From assembly GCA_017468465.1 (NCBI GenBank), contig JAFUIN010000018.1:9766-73765 (forward strand): 64,000 bases of DNA, read 5' to 3'. This document shows positions 13,848 to 54,878 of the stretch, one piece after another (the stretch's first letter is position 1; the number at the start of each line of letters is the position of its first letter). Under the pieces are notes generated by a model. That model saw only the letters and a program-made list of their open reading frames with translations, ran no database searches and was not told where the DNA came from. A program made the position numbers and the translations under genes. The stretch comes from Clostridia bacterium (GTDB lineage: Bacteria > Bacillota > Clostridia > UMGS1840).

Positions 13848-13857
13848 TTTTGGTTCC

Positions 13858-13990
13858 TTTCTTTCATCCTGACTGTAACGGTCGGTATTGGAATTTCACC
13901 AATTCAGCTCAGATTTTTGAGCGCGTGGACTGTCTGCCAAGTGCGGCACTTACCACCGGTCGGGAATTTCACCCTGTCCTGAAAGTATAT
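13858..13990 (-). promoter_or_regulatory. FMN riboswitch (RFN element)
   Basis: The minus strand reads AGGACAGGGTGAAATTCCCGACCGGTGGTA...GGTGAAATTCCAATACCGACCGTTACAGTCAGGATGAAAGAAAGG, which matches the conserved RFN core blocks. The P1 3' strand abuts the ribU RBS, suggesting translational control. Confidence 0.85.
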
Positions 13991-32280: not shown

Positions 32281-32292
32281 GCTTTCTGTTAT

Positions 32293-32432
32293 GGCTTGAT
32301 AAAAGAACATAGACCGCAAAAGGCATAGGATTTCCTATGCTTTTTGTTTTTATAAGGTGAAAATTTATGTGCCACAAATTTTTAGATTATAATGCCTTTT
32401 GCTGTAAACCGATCTCACCGCTCGGCGTAGCA
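32293..32432 (+). repeat. About 140-bp structured repeat, left copy (begins GGCTTGATAAA, contains the serA terminator hairpin)
   Basis: Roughly 85-90% identical by eye to the reverse complement of 34442-34582. Confidence 0.85.
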
Positions 32433-32548
32433 TTGCATGCAGCATAAGTACGCCTTCGGGATCATGCCGTACGCAGTACCCCCTGCGGGGTTAGTTGCTT
32501 CATTCTATGTCCGTTTCGCTGCCCTTGATATAACGTCATATAAAACTA

Positions 32549-32582
32549 TAAAAGGCATAGGGAAAAGCCCTATGCCTTTTTT
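32549..32582. terminator. Terminator downstream of putP (bidirectional hairpin)
   Basis: GGCATAGGG-AAAAG-CCCTATGCC flanked by A- and T-runs. Confidence 0.7.
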
Positions 32583-32609: not shown

Positions 32610-34121
32610 TTAGTCGTCTATGGATTTGTCAGTTGCTTTTTCATAAATTGCCAATACCTGCGGAGAGGGCATCTTGTCGCACAAAGAAACTACAACAGCA
32701 ACGATCAGACAAGCGATGAATCCGGGCAGAATTTCGTAGATACCGGTAGAAGCCAACCATACCAGCCAGCCGATATCAACAATCGCACCTACAACAATTC
32801 CGGCAACAGCACCTTTATAGGTAAACCGTTTCCAGAACAAGGATAAGAGGATAACCGGGCCGAATGCAGCACCGAATAAGCCCCAGGCGTTCGATACCAG
32901 ATTCATAATTGCTGCAGCACCTTCACCCTTGGAGCTTGCAATAAAGAAAGCAATAACAGCAACAATTACAACCACGATTCTTCCAACCCACAACAGTTCT
33001 TTATCAGAAGCACTCTTACGGATTAAGGGCTTGTAAATATCGCTGGTGAAGGAAGAAGATGCCACGAGCAGCTGAGAGTCTGCAGTAGACATAGAAGCTG
33101 CAATAATGGCTGCCAGTAAAATGCCGGCTATAAATGCAGGGAATAACATTCTGGTCAGTTCCACAAAAATCATTTCCTGTGCATTTTTACCCAACAGCAT
33201 TTGGGCAAAGCTTACGCCATCTGCAGTTACAAACATTCTGCCAAAATATGCAATAAAGATTGCAGCAGTCAAGGTGATAACTACCCAGATGGTTGCAACG
33301 GTAGCGGATTTTTTCACCATGCTGGGTTTTTTGATGGACATAAAGCGAACAATAATGTGAGGCATACCAAAGTAGCCGAGACCCCATGCCAAGCCGGAAA
33401 CAATATCCTTCCAGCTTGCAGAGAAAAAGTTTGGAACAAAGTCATACGAAGTGCCGTCTGCAGTCACTACAGCCTGACCCAAAAGGTCAGTGTTTAAGTT
33501 GCCGGCTACCGCTAACATAATCGGAACAGCAAGCAGTGCAACCAGCATCAGAAGACCCTGGAAAAAGTCAGTCCAGCAAACTGCCTTAAAACCGCCTAAA
33601 AAGGTGTAAACCAAAATAATCACTGCAAAAATTACCATTGCCAAGGTGGGGTCTAAGGTGGGGAACAGCTGAGTGAATACTTTTGCACCGGCAGAAAATG
33701 CAGATGCAACATAAATGGTGAAGCTTACTAAAAATACAACTGCACAAACAATTTTCAGTGCAGAGCTTTTTGCCATAAAACGGTTGGTTAAGTATTGGGG
33801 AACGGTGATGGCATCACCGGCTGCAGCAGAAAATTTCCGCAGTCTTTTTGCCACGATAATCCAGTTTAAGGCAGTACCGATTGCAAGACCGATGCCAATC
33901 CAAGCCTGACCGAAACCAAATGCTAAAATACTGCCGGGAAGCCCCATCAAAAGCCAGGCACTCATATCAGACGCCTGAGCACTCATCGCGGTAACCCAGG
34001 GGCCCATTTGTCTGCCGCCTAAGAAATAATCTTTTTCGTTTGCGCTTTTACTTTTGAAGAAAAACCATACACCGATGGTAAGCATACAAACAAAGTAAAG
34101 AACAAATGCTAATACTTCCAT
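32610..34121 (-). CDS. putP: Sodium/proline symporter (SSS family)
   Basis: 503 aa, about 13 TM helices, with a PutP-like N-terminus and SSS family blocks (YFLGGRQMGPW, GLPG). Confidence 0.85.
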   Translation of the reverse strand: MEVLAFVLYFVCMLTIGVWFFFKSKSANEKDYFLGGRQMGPWVTAMSAQASDMSAWLLMGLPGSILAFGFGQAWIGIGLAIGTALNWIIVAKRLRKFSAAAGDAITVPQYLTNRFMAKSSALKIVCAVVFLVSFTIYVASAFSAGAKVFTQLFPTLDPTLAMVIFAVIILVYTFLGGFKAVCWTDFFQGLLMLVALLAVPIMLAVAGNLNTDLLGQAVVTADGTSYDFVPNFFSASWKDIVSGLAWGLGYFGMPHIIVRFMSIKKPSMVKKSATVATIWVVITLTAAIFIAYFGRMFVTADGVSFAQMLLGKNAQEMIFVELTRMLFPAFIAGILLAAIIAASMSTADSQLLVASSSFTSDIYKPLIRKSASDKELLWVGRIVVVIVAVIAFFIASSKGEGAAAIMNLVSNAWGLFGAAFGPVILLSLFWKRFTYKGAVAGIVVGAIVDIGWLVWLASTGIYEILPGFIACLIVAVVVSLCDKMPSPQVLAIYEKATDKSIDD

Positions 34122-34206: not shown

Positions 34207-34441
34207 GAAAATGGGGAAATATTTTACAAAAAGTGGATAAAGCTTGCATAATATGCAAAATTATGCAAGTCCGAAGGTTTGGAAAAATTTGTTCAAGGGA
34301 GGTTGTCTGTCAATTTTGAGAAGCCGCTACAGCCACTGAGAATCTTTTTTGAAGTTTGCACTAACTTTGCGTTGAGATTCCTCGACTCCACTCGGAATGA
34401 CAGCTAATGACCGCTTTAGTCCGAATGGTGTCTGAAACATG

Positions 34442-34582
34442 TGCTACGCCGAGAGGTGAGGTTAGTTGATAGCAAAAGGCATTATAATTAAAATTTGTGG
34501 GACACAAATTTTCACCTTATAAAAACAAAAGACATAAGGAAAATCCCTATGCCTTTTGCGGTCTGTATTCTTTTATCAAGCC
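34442..34582 (-). repeat. About 140-bp structured repeat, right copy (inverted relative to the left copy; begins 2 nt after the acpP stop)
   Basis: See 32293-32432. Contains a terminator hairpin and a perfect 10-bp hairpin AAAATTTGTG-GGA-CACAAATTTT. Confidence 0.85.
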
Positions 34583-34584
34583 TT

Positions 34585-52215: not shown

Positions 52216-53568
52216 ATGGCAAAAGAACATTTACTGAAAAAACATAAAGATACTGACTATAAGAAAAAAGCAGATGCTTTTTGTGAAGACTATAAAGCCT
52301 TTCTCACCACTGCAAAAACGGAACGTCTTTGTGTGGAATATTTCACCGAAAAGGCAAAAGCAAACGGCTTTACCGATGTTTTAGCTTCACAGGGTGTAAA
52401 AGCAGGAGATAAGGTTTACTATGTCAATAAAAACCGCTCTCTTGTGCTGGCAGTTATCGGAGAAGAGGACATCGAAAACGGCATCAATCTGGTTGCCGCA
52501 CACATTGACTCACCCCGTCTGGACTTAAAACCTGCACCGGTAACCGAGGAAGGCGGATTTTCCTATCTTCGCACCCATTACTATGGTGGCATCAAAAAAT
52601 ATCAGTGGGTGGCAACACCCCTGGCACTTTACGGTGTTGTAGTGAAGAAAAATGGCGAAACTGTAAAAATTGCCATTGGTGATGGGGAAAATGACCCCAT
52701 TTTCATGATTACCGATTTGCTTCCTCATTTAGCCTCCAAGCAGATGGGGCAGAAAATGACCGAAGGAATCCCCGGTGAAAAGCTGATGGTATTATCCGGC
52801 TCCAATCCCGATTTGGATGCAGAAAGCGAAGAAGTTAAGGGTGCGCTCCTGAAAATTTTAGAAGAAAAATACAGCATTTCGGAGGAAGATTTTTATTCTG
52901 CCGAAATTGAAGTGGTTCCCCAAGGTGCTGCCCGTGATGTAGGGTTTGACCGCAGCATGGTGGCTTCCTACGGTCACGATGACAGAGTCTGTGCCTATAC
53001 AGCATTCCAGGCGCTTTTAGAAACCGGCATTCCTAAGAAAACTGCAGTGGTTCTGCTTGCCGACAGAGAAGAAGTGGGCAGTATGGGAAATTCCGGCATG
53101 CAATCCAGATTTTTGGAATACTTTTTAGAAGAAGTAAATCCTTCTGCCCGTATCAATAAAGTGATGGCAAACACCGTTTGCCTGTCCTCTGACGTTGCGG
53201 CAGCCTTTGACCCCATGTATGCAGACGTGTACGAAAAGCAGAATTCTCCCATCTTCGGATGCGGACTCACCCTGCTTCGTTACACCGGCTCCCGCGGAAA
53301 AGGCGGCTCCTCCGAGGCGAGCGCAGAGCTGGTTGCCTATATCCGTAACATTTTTGATGCCAACAATATTTCTTACCAGTTTGCAGAACTGGGGAAAGTA
53401 GATGAAGGTGGCGGCGGAACCGTAGCCCAGTATATCGCCAACTTAGGAGCCGACGTCATTGATGCCGGCGTTGCGCTGCTTTCCATGCACGCACCCTATG
53501 AAATTGCTCACAAGATGGATGTATATGAAGCATATCGCGCATATATTGCGTTTATGACGGCTCGATAA
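52216..53568 (+). CDS. M18-family aminopeptidase
   Basis: 450 aa with HIDSPRLDLKP, GHDDRVC, DREEVGS and SMHAPYE blocks. Confidence 0.8.
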   Translation: MAKEHLLKKHKDTDYKKKADAFCEDYKAFLTTAKTERLCVEYFTEKAKANGFTDVLASQGVKAGDKVYYVNKNRSLVLAVIGEEDIENGINLVAAHIDSPRLDLKPAPVTEEGGFSYLRTHYYGGIKKYQWVATPLALYGVVVKKNGETVKIAIGDGENDPIFMITDLLPHLASKQMGQKMTEGIPGEKLMVLSGSNPDLDAESEEVKGALLKILEEKYSISEEDFYSAEIEVVPQGAARDVGFDRSMVASYGHDDRVCAYTAFQALLETGIPKKTAVVLLADREEVGSMGNSGMQSRFLEYFLEEVNPSARINKVMANTVCLSSDVAAAFDPMYADVYEKQNSPIFGCGLTLLRYTGSRGKGGSSEASAELVAYIRNIFDANNISYQFAELGKVDEGGGGTVAQYIANLGADVIDAGVALLSMHAPYEIAHKMDVYEAYRAYIAFMTAR

Positions 53569-53961
53569 ACAGCGCATAATGGATGCTATGCCGTGCACAG
53601 TACTTCTGCATCCGTTTCTCATCGCCTTATCTATATGGTGACGGCTTGATAAACAGTGTGCATAATGGATGCTATGCCGTACGCAGTACTTCTGCATCCG
53701 TTTCTCATCGCCTTATCTATATGCTGACGGCTTGATAAACAGTGTGCATAATGGATGCTATGCCGTACGCAGTACTTCTGCATCCGTTTCTCATAGCCTT
53801 ATCTATATGGTGACGGCTTGATAAACAGTGTGCATAATGGATGCTATGCCGTACGCAGTACGCAGTACTTCTGCATCCGTTTCTCGTCACCTTATCTATA
53901 TGGTGACAGCTCGATAAACAGCGCGCATAACGGATGCTATGCCGTACGCAGTACTTCTGCC
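53557..53961 (+). repeat. Tandem repeat, about 4.6 copies of an 84-93 bp unit
   Basis: Units start at 53557, 53641, 53727, 53813 and 53906 (partial). The consensus is ACGGCTTGATAAACAGTGTGCATAATGGATGCTATGCCGTACGCAGTACTTCTGCATCCGTTTCTCATCGCCTTATCTATATGGTG. The first unit contains the stop codon of the aminopeptidase gene. Confidence 0.9.
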
Positions 53962-53993
53962 TGAAAGGTGGGCAGGGAAGGGATAAATTTACT

Positions 53994-54878
53994 ATGACAA
54001 GATCAGGCTTTGTTGCCTTGGTGGGGCGTCCCAATACGGGAAAATCCACCTTACTTAACAGCATCATCGGAGAAAAGGTGGCCATAGTGTCCTACCGCTC
54101 TCAGACGACCCGTAATCGGATTGTGGGCATTTTAACCCAAGGGGACGACCAGATTGTATTTACGGATACCCCGGGCATTCACAAACCCAAAACAAGACTC
54201 GGGGAAGAAATGATGGCAGCGGCAAACGGTGCCATTACCGATTGCGACGTTACTGTTTTAGTGGCAGAACCGCGTCTCCCGGGAGAGATTGAGAAAAAAA
54301 TCATTCAAGGCTTTCAGAAGAATCACATTCCTGCCATATTGGTGCTCAATAAAATTGATACAGTTCCCAAGGAAAATCTGCTTCCTGTGATTTTAGAATA
54401 TTCCAAGCTGTATGATTTTATTGAAATTATTCCCGTATCTGCCTTAAAACGTGACGGCATTGACCTATTGATTTCTGCTCTGAAAAAACATTTGGTTGAA
54501 GGACCGTTCTTTTATCCGGAGGATATGAAAACCGATATGGATGAGCGCACCGCTGTGTGTGAAATTGTCCGTGAAAAGCTCCTGAAGCTCTTAAATGAGG
54601 AAATTCCTCACGGCTTGGCGTTGGAAACGGTTGTGATGGAGCAGTCGGCAAAACTTTTGAAATGCGGTGTCAATATTTACTGTGAAAAAGACGGTCACAA
54701 GCGCATTATTATCGGAAAAGACGGTGCTTTTATCAAAAAAATCGGAATGCTTGCAAGGGAAGAGCTGGAGAAAAAATACGGCAAAAAAGTGCATCTGGAG
54801 TTATGGGTAAAAGTCAACCGTGACTGGAGAAATAACATTTATAAAATCCGTAGTTTTGGTCTTGGTGATGTAGAATAA
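53994..54878 (+). CDS. era: GTPase Era
   Basis: MTRSGFVALVGRPNTGKST, DTPG and NKID G-motifs plus a KH domain. The ORF-track N-terminal extension runs into the repeat array and was rejected. Confidence 0.9.
   Translation: MTRSGFVALVGRPNTGKSTLLNSIIGEKVAIVSYRSQTTRNRIVGILTQGDDQIVFTDTPGIHKPKTRLGEEMMAAANGAITDCDVTVLVAEPRLPGEIEKKIIQGFQKNHIPAILVLNKIDTVPKENLLPVILEYSKLYDFIEIIPVSALKRDGIDLLISALKKHLVEGPFFYPEDMKTDMDERTAVCEIVREKLLKLLNEEIPHGLALETVVMEQSAKLLKCGVNIYCEKDGHKRIIIGKDGAFIKKIGMLAREELEKKYGKKVHLELWVKVNRDWRNNIYKIRSFGLGDVE

What the first reader, a model, noticed from the sequence alone, without database searches (positions are those of the whole stretch)
53557..53961. 4.6-copy tandem array of an 86-bp structured unit between the M18 aminopeptidase gene and era
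Units of 84, 86, 86, 93 and about 56 bp are nearly identical to one another. The fourth carries a 7-nt internal duplication (ACGCAGT). The first and last units have CTCGATAA where the middle units have CTTGATAA.

The first unit supplies the last five codons and the TAA stop of the aminopeptidase gene. Its T-to-C change converts the unit's TGA into CGA.

Each unit can fold into a 9-bp stem (AAUGGAUGC/GCAUCCGUU) around a 21-nt loop that holds the palindromic CGTACG/GTAC-GCA-GTAC core. An outer GAUAA/UUAUC pairing is also possible. The array ends about 30 nt before the era start codon, so it would lie in the era 5' UTR or in a long 3' UTR.

Unit lengths are mostly not multiples of three, so the array is not protein-coding. 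There are no unique spacers, so it is not a CRISPR array.
Basis: seen in the sequence. Interest (0 to 1): 0.55.

Follow-up and report, generated by a model that had tools for sequence, protein, structure and literature searches.

The report
Amplified remnant of a gene-end hairpin repeat
The tandem array between the aminopeptidase gene and era is real, but it is a strain-variable amplification of a truncated copy of a small hairpin-forming repeat that sits just after stop codons in this genome and in many gut Clostridia, and probably not a dedicated regulatory RNA.

Summary

The unit is not a self-standing structured RNA. Its fold is no better than shuffled sequence, and Rfam 15 has no match. 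Sister species carry, at the same place, one or two copies of a longer hairpin of about 105-130 nt with strong covariation.

That hairpin belongs to an uncatalogued family of small interspersed repeats. The family has paired end arms (P1), often a nested terminator-like hairpin, and a core hairpin (P3) with an invariant CCGCUCG...CUUCGGG loop followed by UCUGCAUC. Members lie 0-100 nt after the stop codons of unrelated genes, on the same strand as those genes. I found them in 35 mostly human-gut metagenome contigs and at three loci in this window (32.3 kb, 34.5 kb and the array).

The 86-nt unit is a truncated derivative that lacks the 3' half of the core. It is arranged as (x-y)n-x, the pattern expected from unequal recombination between direct repeats. 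Same-species assemblies show 2.7, 3.7 or 4.7 copies, or a different array makeup.

The closest analogues are pneumococcal BOX and SPRITE elements and mycobacterial MIRU-VNTR loci. The function of the family is unknown.

The parts
52216..53568 (+). M18 aminopeptidase gene. Its last about 4.7 codons and the TAA stop (53555-53568) lie in unit 1, which is the 5' arm of the repeat element.
   Evidence: ORF; Pfam PF02127 E 5e-89. Element-bearing relatives end ...FM(x)A(R)*, whereas element-free relatives end ...FLKD*...FFGN* or ...FLK*.
53555..53638 (+). Unit 1 (84 nt, short form, CTCGATAA, GTGCACAGTAC variant)
   Evidence: model R1 score 44.6 bits
53639..53724 (+). Unit 2 (86 nt)
   Evidence: R1 33 bits. 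It holds the only two bases that differ from assembly L001.
53725..53810 (+). Unit 3 (86 nt)
   Evidence: R1 26.2 bits
53811..53903 (+). Unit 4 (93 nt, with a 7-nt internal duplication within 53851-53868)
   Evidence: R1 32.6 bits. This unit is present in all assemblies that span the array.
53904..53960 (+). Unit 5, partial (57 nt, the 'x' part only, CTCGATAA, AACGGATGC). It is homologous to the single era-proximal short copy in sister species L091.
53957..53993 (+). Unique tail: hairpin CUGCCUGAAAGGUGGGCAG, then a purine-rich ribosome-binding region GGGAAGGGA, before the era ATG. The tail is conserved in L090, L091 and L092.
53994..54878 (+). era GTPase gene (294 aa). An in-frame ATG at 53934 inside unit 5 makes some gene callers report 314 aa.
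32281..32535 (+). Copy A of the same repeat family. Order: GGCTTGATAAA arm 13 nt after the stop of a 2-hydroxyacid dehydrogenase gene, nested terminator-like hairpin (32316-32347), intact core CTCGGCGTA...TACGCCTTCGGG, the 14-mer GCCGTACGCAGTAC shared with the array units, then the 3' arm ...GTCCGTTTCGCTGCCC.
   Evidence: z -2.4; nhmmer E 4e-6 to the long-form profile
34440..34584 (-). Copy B of the family. It starts 2 nt after the stop of a small ORF that looks ACP-like by eye. It is 86.7% identical to copy A over 143 nt and is truncated in the core hairpin by another repeat.
   Evidence: (E 9e-43)

Best explanation
The array is a tandem amplification, specific to this lineage, of a truncated copy of a small interspersed hairpin repeat.

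Shown. The ancestral state at this locus is one element of about 105-130 nt. Its 5' arm begins in the last codons and stop codon of the M18 peptidase gene. It folds into a long imperfect hairpin that carries the family core.

Shown. In the window's species the repeating unit is an 86-nt derivative. It keeps the 5' arm (x, 57 nt) and the 3' arm (y, 29 nt). It lacks about 31 nt, including the 3' half of the core hairpin.

Shown. The array has the form (x-y)4-x.

Inferred. Once a direct repeat x...x existed, unequal homologous recombination or replication slippage between the x copies expanded and contracted the array. This gives different copy numbers and makeups in closely related strains.

Inferred. 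The units themselves probably have no dedicated function. If the spacer is transcribed with the peptidase gene or era, they add a string of modest hairpins to it. Those hairpins could affect mRNA processing or stability in a non-specific way.

Inferred. The parent family behaves like a BOX/SPRITE-type repeat associated with terminators, placed directly after stop codons. How it spreads is unknown, as is whether it acts as RNA or as DNA.
For: Array and units.

Evolutionary series at the same syntenic locus (coaE, M18 peptidase, spacer, era, mntP), with flank identity to the window:
- L101 (about 73%): 33-nt spacer, no element.
- L009 and L090 (about 80-83%): one long form, no tandem repeat.
- L099: one copy plus a stub. 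L094-L098: two diverged long forms plus a stub.
- L091 (about 90%): 1.6 long forms, a foreign insert, and one short copy next to era.
- L092 (98.1%): one intact long unit, two short units and a partial unit.
- L003, L006 and the window (99.3% or more): 2.66, 3.66 and 4.66 short units.

The short unit equals the long unit minus 31 nt, with a swapped core segment.

The long forms share one hairpin. Of 34 predicted pairs, 14 have compensatory changes. 95.4% of cells are paired, against 84% in shuffles and about 40% when partners are slid. The covariation score is 0.373 against 0.142, and 0 of 500 shuffles reach it.

Family. A core-pattern scan found 35 metagenome contigs. In 17 distinct cores the loop is invariant and the flanking stem covaries. 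The end arms covary across 11 loci. Full elements fold as three-way junctions with z = -11.7 and -9.05. In at least 17 of 19 assessable loci the element is on the same strand as the gene just upstream (my own tally of that output), and it starts 0-19 nt after the stop codon in the 10 loci read in full. Upstream genes are unrelated.

Three loci lie in this 64-kb window.

Arrays that end in a partial unit recur at other loci: L102, L108, L110/L113, and L109 with period 184. The same permease locus holds 1.4 copies in one sample and at least 2 in others.
Against: The unit still carries a 9-bp stem, and the U in AAUGGAUGC pairs as G-U only on the + strand. A residual RNA role therefore cannot be excluded.

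The copy-number differences rest on short-read metagenome assemblies, which can collapse near-identical units.

The recombination mechanism is inferred from the (x-y)n-x pattern and has not been observed.

No target-site duplication, no transposase and no empty or filled site pair at high identity was found. Mobility of the family is therefore unproven.

Compensatory changes within the orthologous locus suggest that the long form is under selection for structure. It may therefore have a host function that I cannot name.
Confidence: 0.68

Rival explanations
1. The array is a functional RNA device: either a leader or attenuator for era, or a battery of small RNAs processed from the peptidase-era transcript. 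Each unit would contribute one hairpin.
For: Both flanking genes are on the same strand, and no terminator-like site lies between them. Each unit has a 9-bp stem with a G-U pair that works only on the + strand. The whole spacer folds slightly better than shuffles, z = -2.07. The long form at this locus keeps its pairing through compensatory changes.
Against: The unit fold is no better than shuffles. Rfam has no match even at E up to 10. The units lack the family's invariant core. Copy number and unit type differ between strains that share 98-99.9% identical flanks. One related lineage has no element at all, only a 33-nt spacer. Family members also sit before convergent genes, so the family is not a 5' leader.
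Confidence: 0.12
2. The array is an assembly artefact, an expansion or mis-join of short reads.
For: Three Logan contigs stop inside unit 1, and two scaffolds have 100-N gaps in the array. The only differences between the window and L001 are inside unit 2.
Against: Units 1, 4 (with its 7-nt duplication) and 5 are each distinct and appear in the same order in all spanning assemblies from different samples and assemblers. L092, an independent NCBI genome bin, also has a 3.1-copy array. Sister species show related tandem states. Only the number of middle units is in doubt.
Confidence: 0.04
3. The element family acts at the DNA level. It would be a non-autonomous mobile element of the MITE or REP type, whose end arms and core hairpin are recognised by a transposase or nicking enzyme. 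The tandem arrays would then be by-products of that enzyme's copying mechanism, not of host recombination.
For: The end arms are inverted repeats of about 20 bp. Folds are extremely stable (z = -9 to -12), as is typical of palindromic repeats. Copies are dispersed and about 87% identical within one genome. In full-length copies a terminator-like hairpin lies upstream of the core, so the core and the 3' arm may seldom be transcribed. G-U and A-C mismatches are about equally common in the core stem, so neither strand is favoured as RNA. X-Y-X arrays recur independently at many loci.
Against: The flanks of 11 copies show no consistent target-site duplication (by eye). No transposase gene is linked; the one IS200-like gene, in L094, has unrelated ends. 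There are no hits in IMG/VR. The strong orientation bias with the upstream gene and the compensatory changes within an orthologous locus fit an RNA-level constraint better.
Confidence: 0.14

Closest known systems
BOX elements of Streptococcus pneumoniae (boxA-boxB(n)-boxC)
   Same: Both are small interspersed intergenic repeats in Firmicutes. The end modules pair with each other. An internal part occurs as a tandem array whose copy number varies between strains. Both are predicted to fold as stem-loops if transcribed, and neither has a clear function (PMC3049150).
   Different: No sequence relation was tested or seen. Here the repeating block includes one end arm, giving (x-y)n-x, not an internal module between fixed ends. 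The family has an invariant internal-loop core and sits tightly against stop codons.
[quoted passage not shown]
   Same: Both are interspersed repeats enriched close to the 3' ends of coding sequences, follow the orientation of the genes, and have a terminator-like hairpin with a U-rich tract (PMC3049150). Copies A and B and the gut copies carry such a hairpin.
   Different: The present family is larger (about 190-250 nt when complete) and has two further helices and a conserved core. The peptidase-era version and the array units have no terminator-like hairpin.
MIRU-VNTR loci of Mycobacterium tuberculosis (from my own knowledge: Supply et al. 1997, 2000; not read here)
   Same: Both have units of 40-100 bp that are dispersed in the genome and tandemly repeated in spacers between genes on the same strand. 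In both, units overlap the stop codon of the upstream gene and copy number varies between strains.
   Different: MIRU-VNTR loci are in a different phylum, and there is no evidence of sequence relation. MIRU units are not derived from a larger three-helix element.
REP/BIME, ERIC and Correia elements of proteobacteria
   Same: All are palindromic intergenic repeats found in 3' untranslated or intercistronic regions, sometimes clustered. Reported effects are on mRNA stability, attenuation and RNase cleavage (background of PMC3049150; PMC3184786).
   Different: REP units are about 35 nt and alternate in orientation within clusters. Correia and ERIC elements have target duplications or known transposase links. 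None of these features was seen here.

Membership tests
Small interspersed repeat (BOX/RUP/SPRITE/REP kind) | Several dispersed copies within one genome | tested here: met
   Three loci lie in the 64-kb window: 32281-32535, 34440-34584 and 53555-53960. Copies A and B are 86.7% identical over 143 nt, E 9e-43.
Small interspersed repeat (BOX/RUP/SPRITE/REP kind) | Intergenic location, mostly downstream of coding sequences | tested here: met
   All copies lie after stop codons. At least 17 of 19 assessable loci are on the same strand as the upstream gene (my tally), and the element starts 0-19 nt after the stop in the 10 loci read in full.
Small interspersed repeat (BOX/RUP/SPRITE/REP kind) | Self-complementary ends and a stable stem-loop | tested here: met
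   The P1 arms covary in 11 loci. Fold z-scores are -11.7 and -9.05.
Small interspersed repeat (BOX/RUP/SPRITE/REP kind) | Evidence of mobility: target-site duplication, empty and filled sites, or a cognate transposase | tested here: inconclusive
   No consistent duplication flanks 11 copies. L101 lacks the element, but at only about 73% identity, so the boundaries are blurred. No linked transposase was found.
BOX element specifically | Sequence homology to boxA, boxB and boxC | not tested
   No BOX models were available in the tools. The hosts are uncultured Clostridia, not streptococci.
Rfam structured RNA family (any) | Match to a curated covariance model | tested here: not met
   No match over the array at E up to 10. 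No match in the spacers of relatives, in gut copies, or over copies A and B. The only gathering-level hit in the window is an FMN riboswitch elsewhere.
CRISPR array | Short repeats separated by unique spacers of similar length | tested here: not met
   The units abut head to tail, with no unique spacers.
Intrinsic terminator | G+C-rich hairpin followed directly by a run of U | tested here: not met
   No terminator-like site in 53555-53993. By contrast, copies A and B do hold one each, at 32316-32347 and 34559-34525.
Protein-coding repeat | Unit length a multiple of three, or a conserved reading frame | tested here: not met
   Units are 84, 86, 86 and 93 nt. The minus-strand ORF MRNGCR... changes frame and content between L009, L090 and L094 (translated by hand).

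The most novel reading that the evidence does not exclude
The parent family, with its P1 arms, optional nested terminator hairpin, core hairpin with an invariant GCUC/UUCG internal loop and A-A mismatch, and the UCUGCAUC tail, may be more than passive junk. One possibility is a new functional structured RNA of gene 3' ends in gut Clostridia, for example a protein-binding or processing signal whose folding is coupled to the ribosome terminating a few nucleotides upstream. Another is a new class of non-autonomous mobile element that targets stop-codon-proximal sites, brings its own terminator, and generates tandem copies as part of its copying mechanism. In either case the array in this window would be a fossil of that activity.
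Probability: 0.22. Interest if true: 0.65.

Novelty: new member of a known kind. Interest (0 to 1): 0.4.

Why it matters
For this locus the result is modest. The array is a variable-number repeat that could serve as a strain marker for an uncultured ruminant-gut Clostridia species. It misleads gene callers, which report era as 314 aa from an ATG inside the last unit. It also breaks short-read assemblies.

The wider point is that tracing the array uncovered a repeat family with a conserved three-helix structure that is absent from Rfam 15. I found no description of it, though the only literature check for the family was one search for its sequence strings. The family is present after the stop codons of housekeeping genes in many gut Clostridia, including human-gut contigs.

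Such families shape 3' ends of genes (here one supplies the last codons and the stop of a peptidase), carry terminators, and create recombination hot spots. A census of the family would improve the annotation of 3' ends in metagenome-assembled genomes.

Tried and rejected
- **Rfam.** Five searches covered the window, the relatives, the gut copies and copies A and B. Nothing relevant was found.
- **Exact scan with the short-unit core.** Searches of one genome per species (GTDB), metagenomes and IMG/VR gave 0 hits. The short form is therefore confined to this species and its closest relatives.
- **Small ORF on the minus strand (MRNGCR...).** The frame and content are not conserved between L009, L090 and L094 (translated by hand). 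Rejected.
- **Promoter array.** Each unit has a 9-of-12 match (GTGACG, 17 nt, CATAAT), but the number of such sites in the region equals chance, 7 against 6.3.
- **Known motifs.** K-turn, loop E, hammerhead, twister, pistol, group II domain V, integron attC and the pC194-type nick site CTTGATA were compared by eye from memory. None fits. CTTGATA is limited to this sub-family's arm.
- **IS200-like gene in L094.** Considered as a possible mobiliser. Its upstream region shows no similarity to the core.
- **Target-site duplications.** None was seen.
- **Literature search for the core sequence strings.** Only chance hits.
- **Homology between the gene's upstream 29 nt and the unit's 3' part.** Ungapped identity is 8 of 29, which is chance level (by hand).

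Full report
**1. The observation**

The region 53555-53960 is a head-to-tail array of an 86-nt unit. Tandem Repeats Finder gives 4.7 copies, 90% matches and score 644, with a nested 7-nt repeat at 53851-53868. Aligning the units gives lengths of 84, 86, 86, 93 and 57 nt. Units 1 and 5 have CTCGATAA and units 2-4 have CTTGATAA.

The upstream ORF (52216-53568) is an M18 aminopeptidase. The downstream ORF is era, with its likely start at 53994. The peptidase ends ATG ACG GCT CGA TAA inside unit 1. The middle units read GTG ACG GCT TGA at the same position.

**2. Is the unit a structured RNA?**

The minimum-energy fold does contain the 9-bp stem and the outer GAUAA/UUAUC pairing. The energy is ordinary, however: z = -0.5 on the + strand and -1.7 on the - strand. 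Rfam 15 has no match at its curated gathering cutoffs or at E up to 10. No terminator-like site lies in the spacer. The promoter-like matches inside the units are no more frequent than chance.

**3. Other assemblies of the same organism**

The exact peptidase protein occurs on 11 metagenome contigs from ruminant gut studies. The array is there too, but contigs break in unit 1, scaffolds have 100-N gaps, and spanning contigs show 2.66, 3.66 or 4.66 copies.

L001 is 99.98% identical to the window over 8.5 kb, and its two differences both lie in unit 2. L003 and L006 are 99.3-99.7% identical. The distinctive units 1, 4 and 5 are always present and in the same order, so the array is real. The number of near-identical middle units is either polymorphic or collapsed by assembly.

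**4. Relatives show where the unit came from**

The locus is syntenic (coaE, peptidase, spacer, era, mntP) in all relatives. Ordered by flank identity to the window:

- L101 (about 73%) has a 33-nt spacer and no element.
- L009 and L090 (about 80-83%) have one long form of about 105 nt and no tandem repeat.
- L099 has one long form plus a stub.
- L094-L098 have two diverged long forms plus a stub.
- L091 (about 90%) has 1.6 long forms, a 250-nt foreign insert, and a single short copy next to era.
- L092 (98.1%, same species) has one intact long unit, then two short units and a partial one.

The short 86-nt unit equals the long unit minus 31 nt, with a different 20-nt core segment.

The long forms fold into one long imperfect hairpin. 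Its base includes the last codons and the stop of the peptidase. For five of the seven long forms z is -2.5 to -3.2; for L009 and L090 it is -1.3 and -0.4.

On seven long forms, 14 of 34 pairs show compensatory changes. 95.4% of cells are paired, against 84% after shuffling and about 40% when partners are slid. The covariation score is 0.373 against 0.142. For example, the basal helix reads AAAUGGA/UCCAUUU, AAAAGG/CCUUUU, AAACGG/CCGUUU, AAACAG/CUGUUU, AAAAACUG/CAGUUUUU and AAAAAUCA/UGAUUUUU in different lineages.

**5. The long form belongs to a wider family**

A covariance model of the long forms (R1) also hit a different locus in a distant genome, L069. A pattern built from the shared core found 35 metagenome contigs, mostly human gut, and none in IMG/VR.

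Seventeen distinct cores share the invariant CCGCUCG(C/G)AGUA...UAC(A/G)(G/C)CUUCGGG and, downstream, UCUGCAUC. The enclosing stem covaries: 11 of 17 pairs have compensatory changes, 93.4% of cells are paired against 70.9% in shuffles, and the covariation score is 0.534 against 0.147.

A full copy has the following order:

- the stop codon of the upstream gene;
- the P1 5' arm (GGGCUGYCRCAUUCRGCGCAGA);
- an A-rich strand;
- a variable terminator-like hairpin;
- a U-rich strand;
- the core hairpin P3;
- the P1 3' arm (UCUGCAUC...GGCAGCCC).

The arms covary across 11 loci. Whole elements fold as three-way junctions with z = -11.7 and -9.05.

In at least 17 of 19 assessable loci the element is on the same strand as the gene just upstream (my tally of that output), and in the 10 loci read in full it starts 0-19 nt after the stop codon. 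In several loci the next gene is convergent. The upstream genes are unrelated: glycogen phosphorylase, iPGM, a sigma factor, ketopantoate reductase, an HD-domain protein and DUF1508 by Pfam, and a permease, a response regulator and a Na/Pi-type protein by eye. Rfam has no match to any of these copies.

**6. The family is dispersed in this genome**

The window holds two more copies. Copy A (32281-32535, + strand) starts 13 nt after the stop of a 2-hydroxyacid dehydrogenase gene. It has an intact core and shares the exact 14-mer GCCGTACGCAGTAC with the array units.

Copy B (34584-34440, - strand) starts 2 nt after the stop of a small ORF that looks ACP-like by eye. It is 86.7% identical to A over 143 nt and is cut short by another repeat.

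Both begin with GGCTTGATAAA, the motif that begins every array unit. So CTTGATAA is part of the element's 5' arm, and the peptidase ORF runs into that arm. Consistent with this, peptidases with the element end ...FM(x)A(R)*, and those without it end ...FLKD*...FFGN* or ...FLK*. Copies A and B each contain a terminator-like hairpin between the arm and the core.

**7. How the array formed**

The array has the form (x-y)4-x, with x = 57 nt and y = 29 nt. Other family loci show the same architecture, ending in a partial unit: L102 and L108 have 1.4 copies, L110 and L113 have 1.6, and L109 has at least 2.2 copies of a 184-nt period. L103, L120 and L134 each hold two cores.

The same permease locus has different copy numbers in different samples.

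This is the pattern expected when two direct repeats x flank y and unequal homologous recombination or slippage adds or removes x-y blocks. That mechanism is inferred, not observed. Why the first x-y-x state arises so often in this family remains unexplained.

**8. What it does**

The array units lack the 3' half of the core and do not match the core model R2. An intact long unit is present in one strain (L092) and absent in another (the window). The array is therefore most simply a decaying, recombination-prone remnant. If transcribed, it adds modest hairpins between the peptidase gene and era.

For the parent family two readings remain open. The orientation bias, the closeness to stop codons and the compensatory changes within one orthologous locus favour a role as RNA in the 3' untranslated region. 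The terminator nested upstream of the core, the near-perfect inverted arms, the extreme fold stability and the equal numbers of G-U and A-C mismatches favour a DNA-level, MITE-like element. I could not decide between them.

**9. Comparison with known elements**

The nearest analogues are all small interspersed repeats:

- pneumococcal BOX elements, which have paired end modules and a tandem internal module whose number varies between strains;
- SPRITE, a terminator-like repeat enriched at the 3' ends of genes (both PMC3049150);
- mycobacterial MIRU-VNTR loci (from my own knowledge);
- proteobacterial REP/BIME, ERIC and Correia elements (PMC3184786).

No sequence membership in any of these was shown. 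The family is a new member of that general kind.

**10. Verdict**

The interpretation as a structured regulatory array is only partly supported. The array is ordinary in kind: a variable tandem amplification of a repeat remnant. It did lead to an uncatalogued, well-structured repeat family in gut Clostridia.

Noticed in passing
window 32281-32535 (+): Complete-looking second copy of the repeat family after a 2-hydroxyacid dehydrogenase gene. It has a nested terminator-like hairpin (32316-32347) and an intact core. A separate bidirectional terminator-like hairpin follows at 32550-32580.
   Followed up: yes
window 34440-34584 (-): Third copy of the family, starting 2 nt after the stop of a small ORF that looks ACP-like by eye. 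It is 86.7% identical to copy A and is truncated inside the core hairpin. Copies A and B point towards each other around the sodium:solute symporter gene (32610-34121).
   Followed up: partly
window about 34290-34440 (-); L091:4540-4790: A different repeat with paired motifs of the type GCTGTCATTC(C/T)GAG...GA(G/A)GAATCTC. In the window it interrupts copy B. In L091 it is inserted into the peptidase-era spacer right after a truncated long unit. It may be another interspersed or MITE-like family that lands inside the first one.
   Followed up: no
window 53934-53996: An in-frame ATG inside the last array unit makes gene callers extend era to 314-318 aa in several assemblies (L005, L006, L091). 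The 294-aa start at 53994 matches relatives that lack the array.
   Followed up: partly
window 13852-13990 (-): FMN riboswitch, 101 bits, well above the Rfam gathering score. It is the only gathering-level Rfam hit in the window.
   Followed up: no
L094:5405-6002: An IS200-like Y1 transposase gene with a weak STnc490-type hit just upstream, 1.7 kb downstream of the two-unit element. No sequence link to the repeat core was seen.
   Followed up: partly
L109:8358-8771; also L103, L120, L134: Human-gut contigs in which the full 184-nt family unit, terminator hairpin included, is tandemly repeated at least 2.2 times downstream of a uracil/xanthine-type permease. L102 has only 1.4 copies at the same locus.
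   Followed up: partly
L038:5378-5461 (-): In a distant Oscillospiraceae genome bin (peptidase 52% identical), a family copy lies 19 nt after the M18 peptidase stop but on the opposite strand, at the contig end. This could be a coincidence or a shared insertion hot spot.
   Followed up: no
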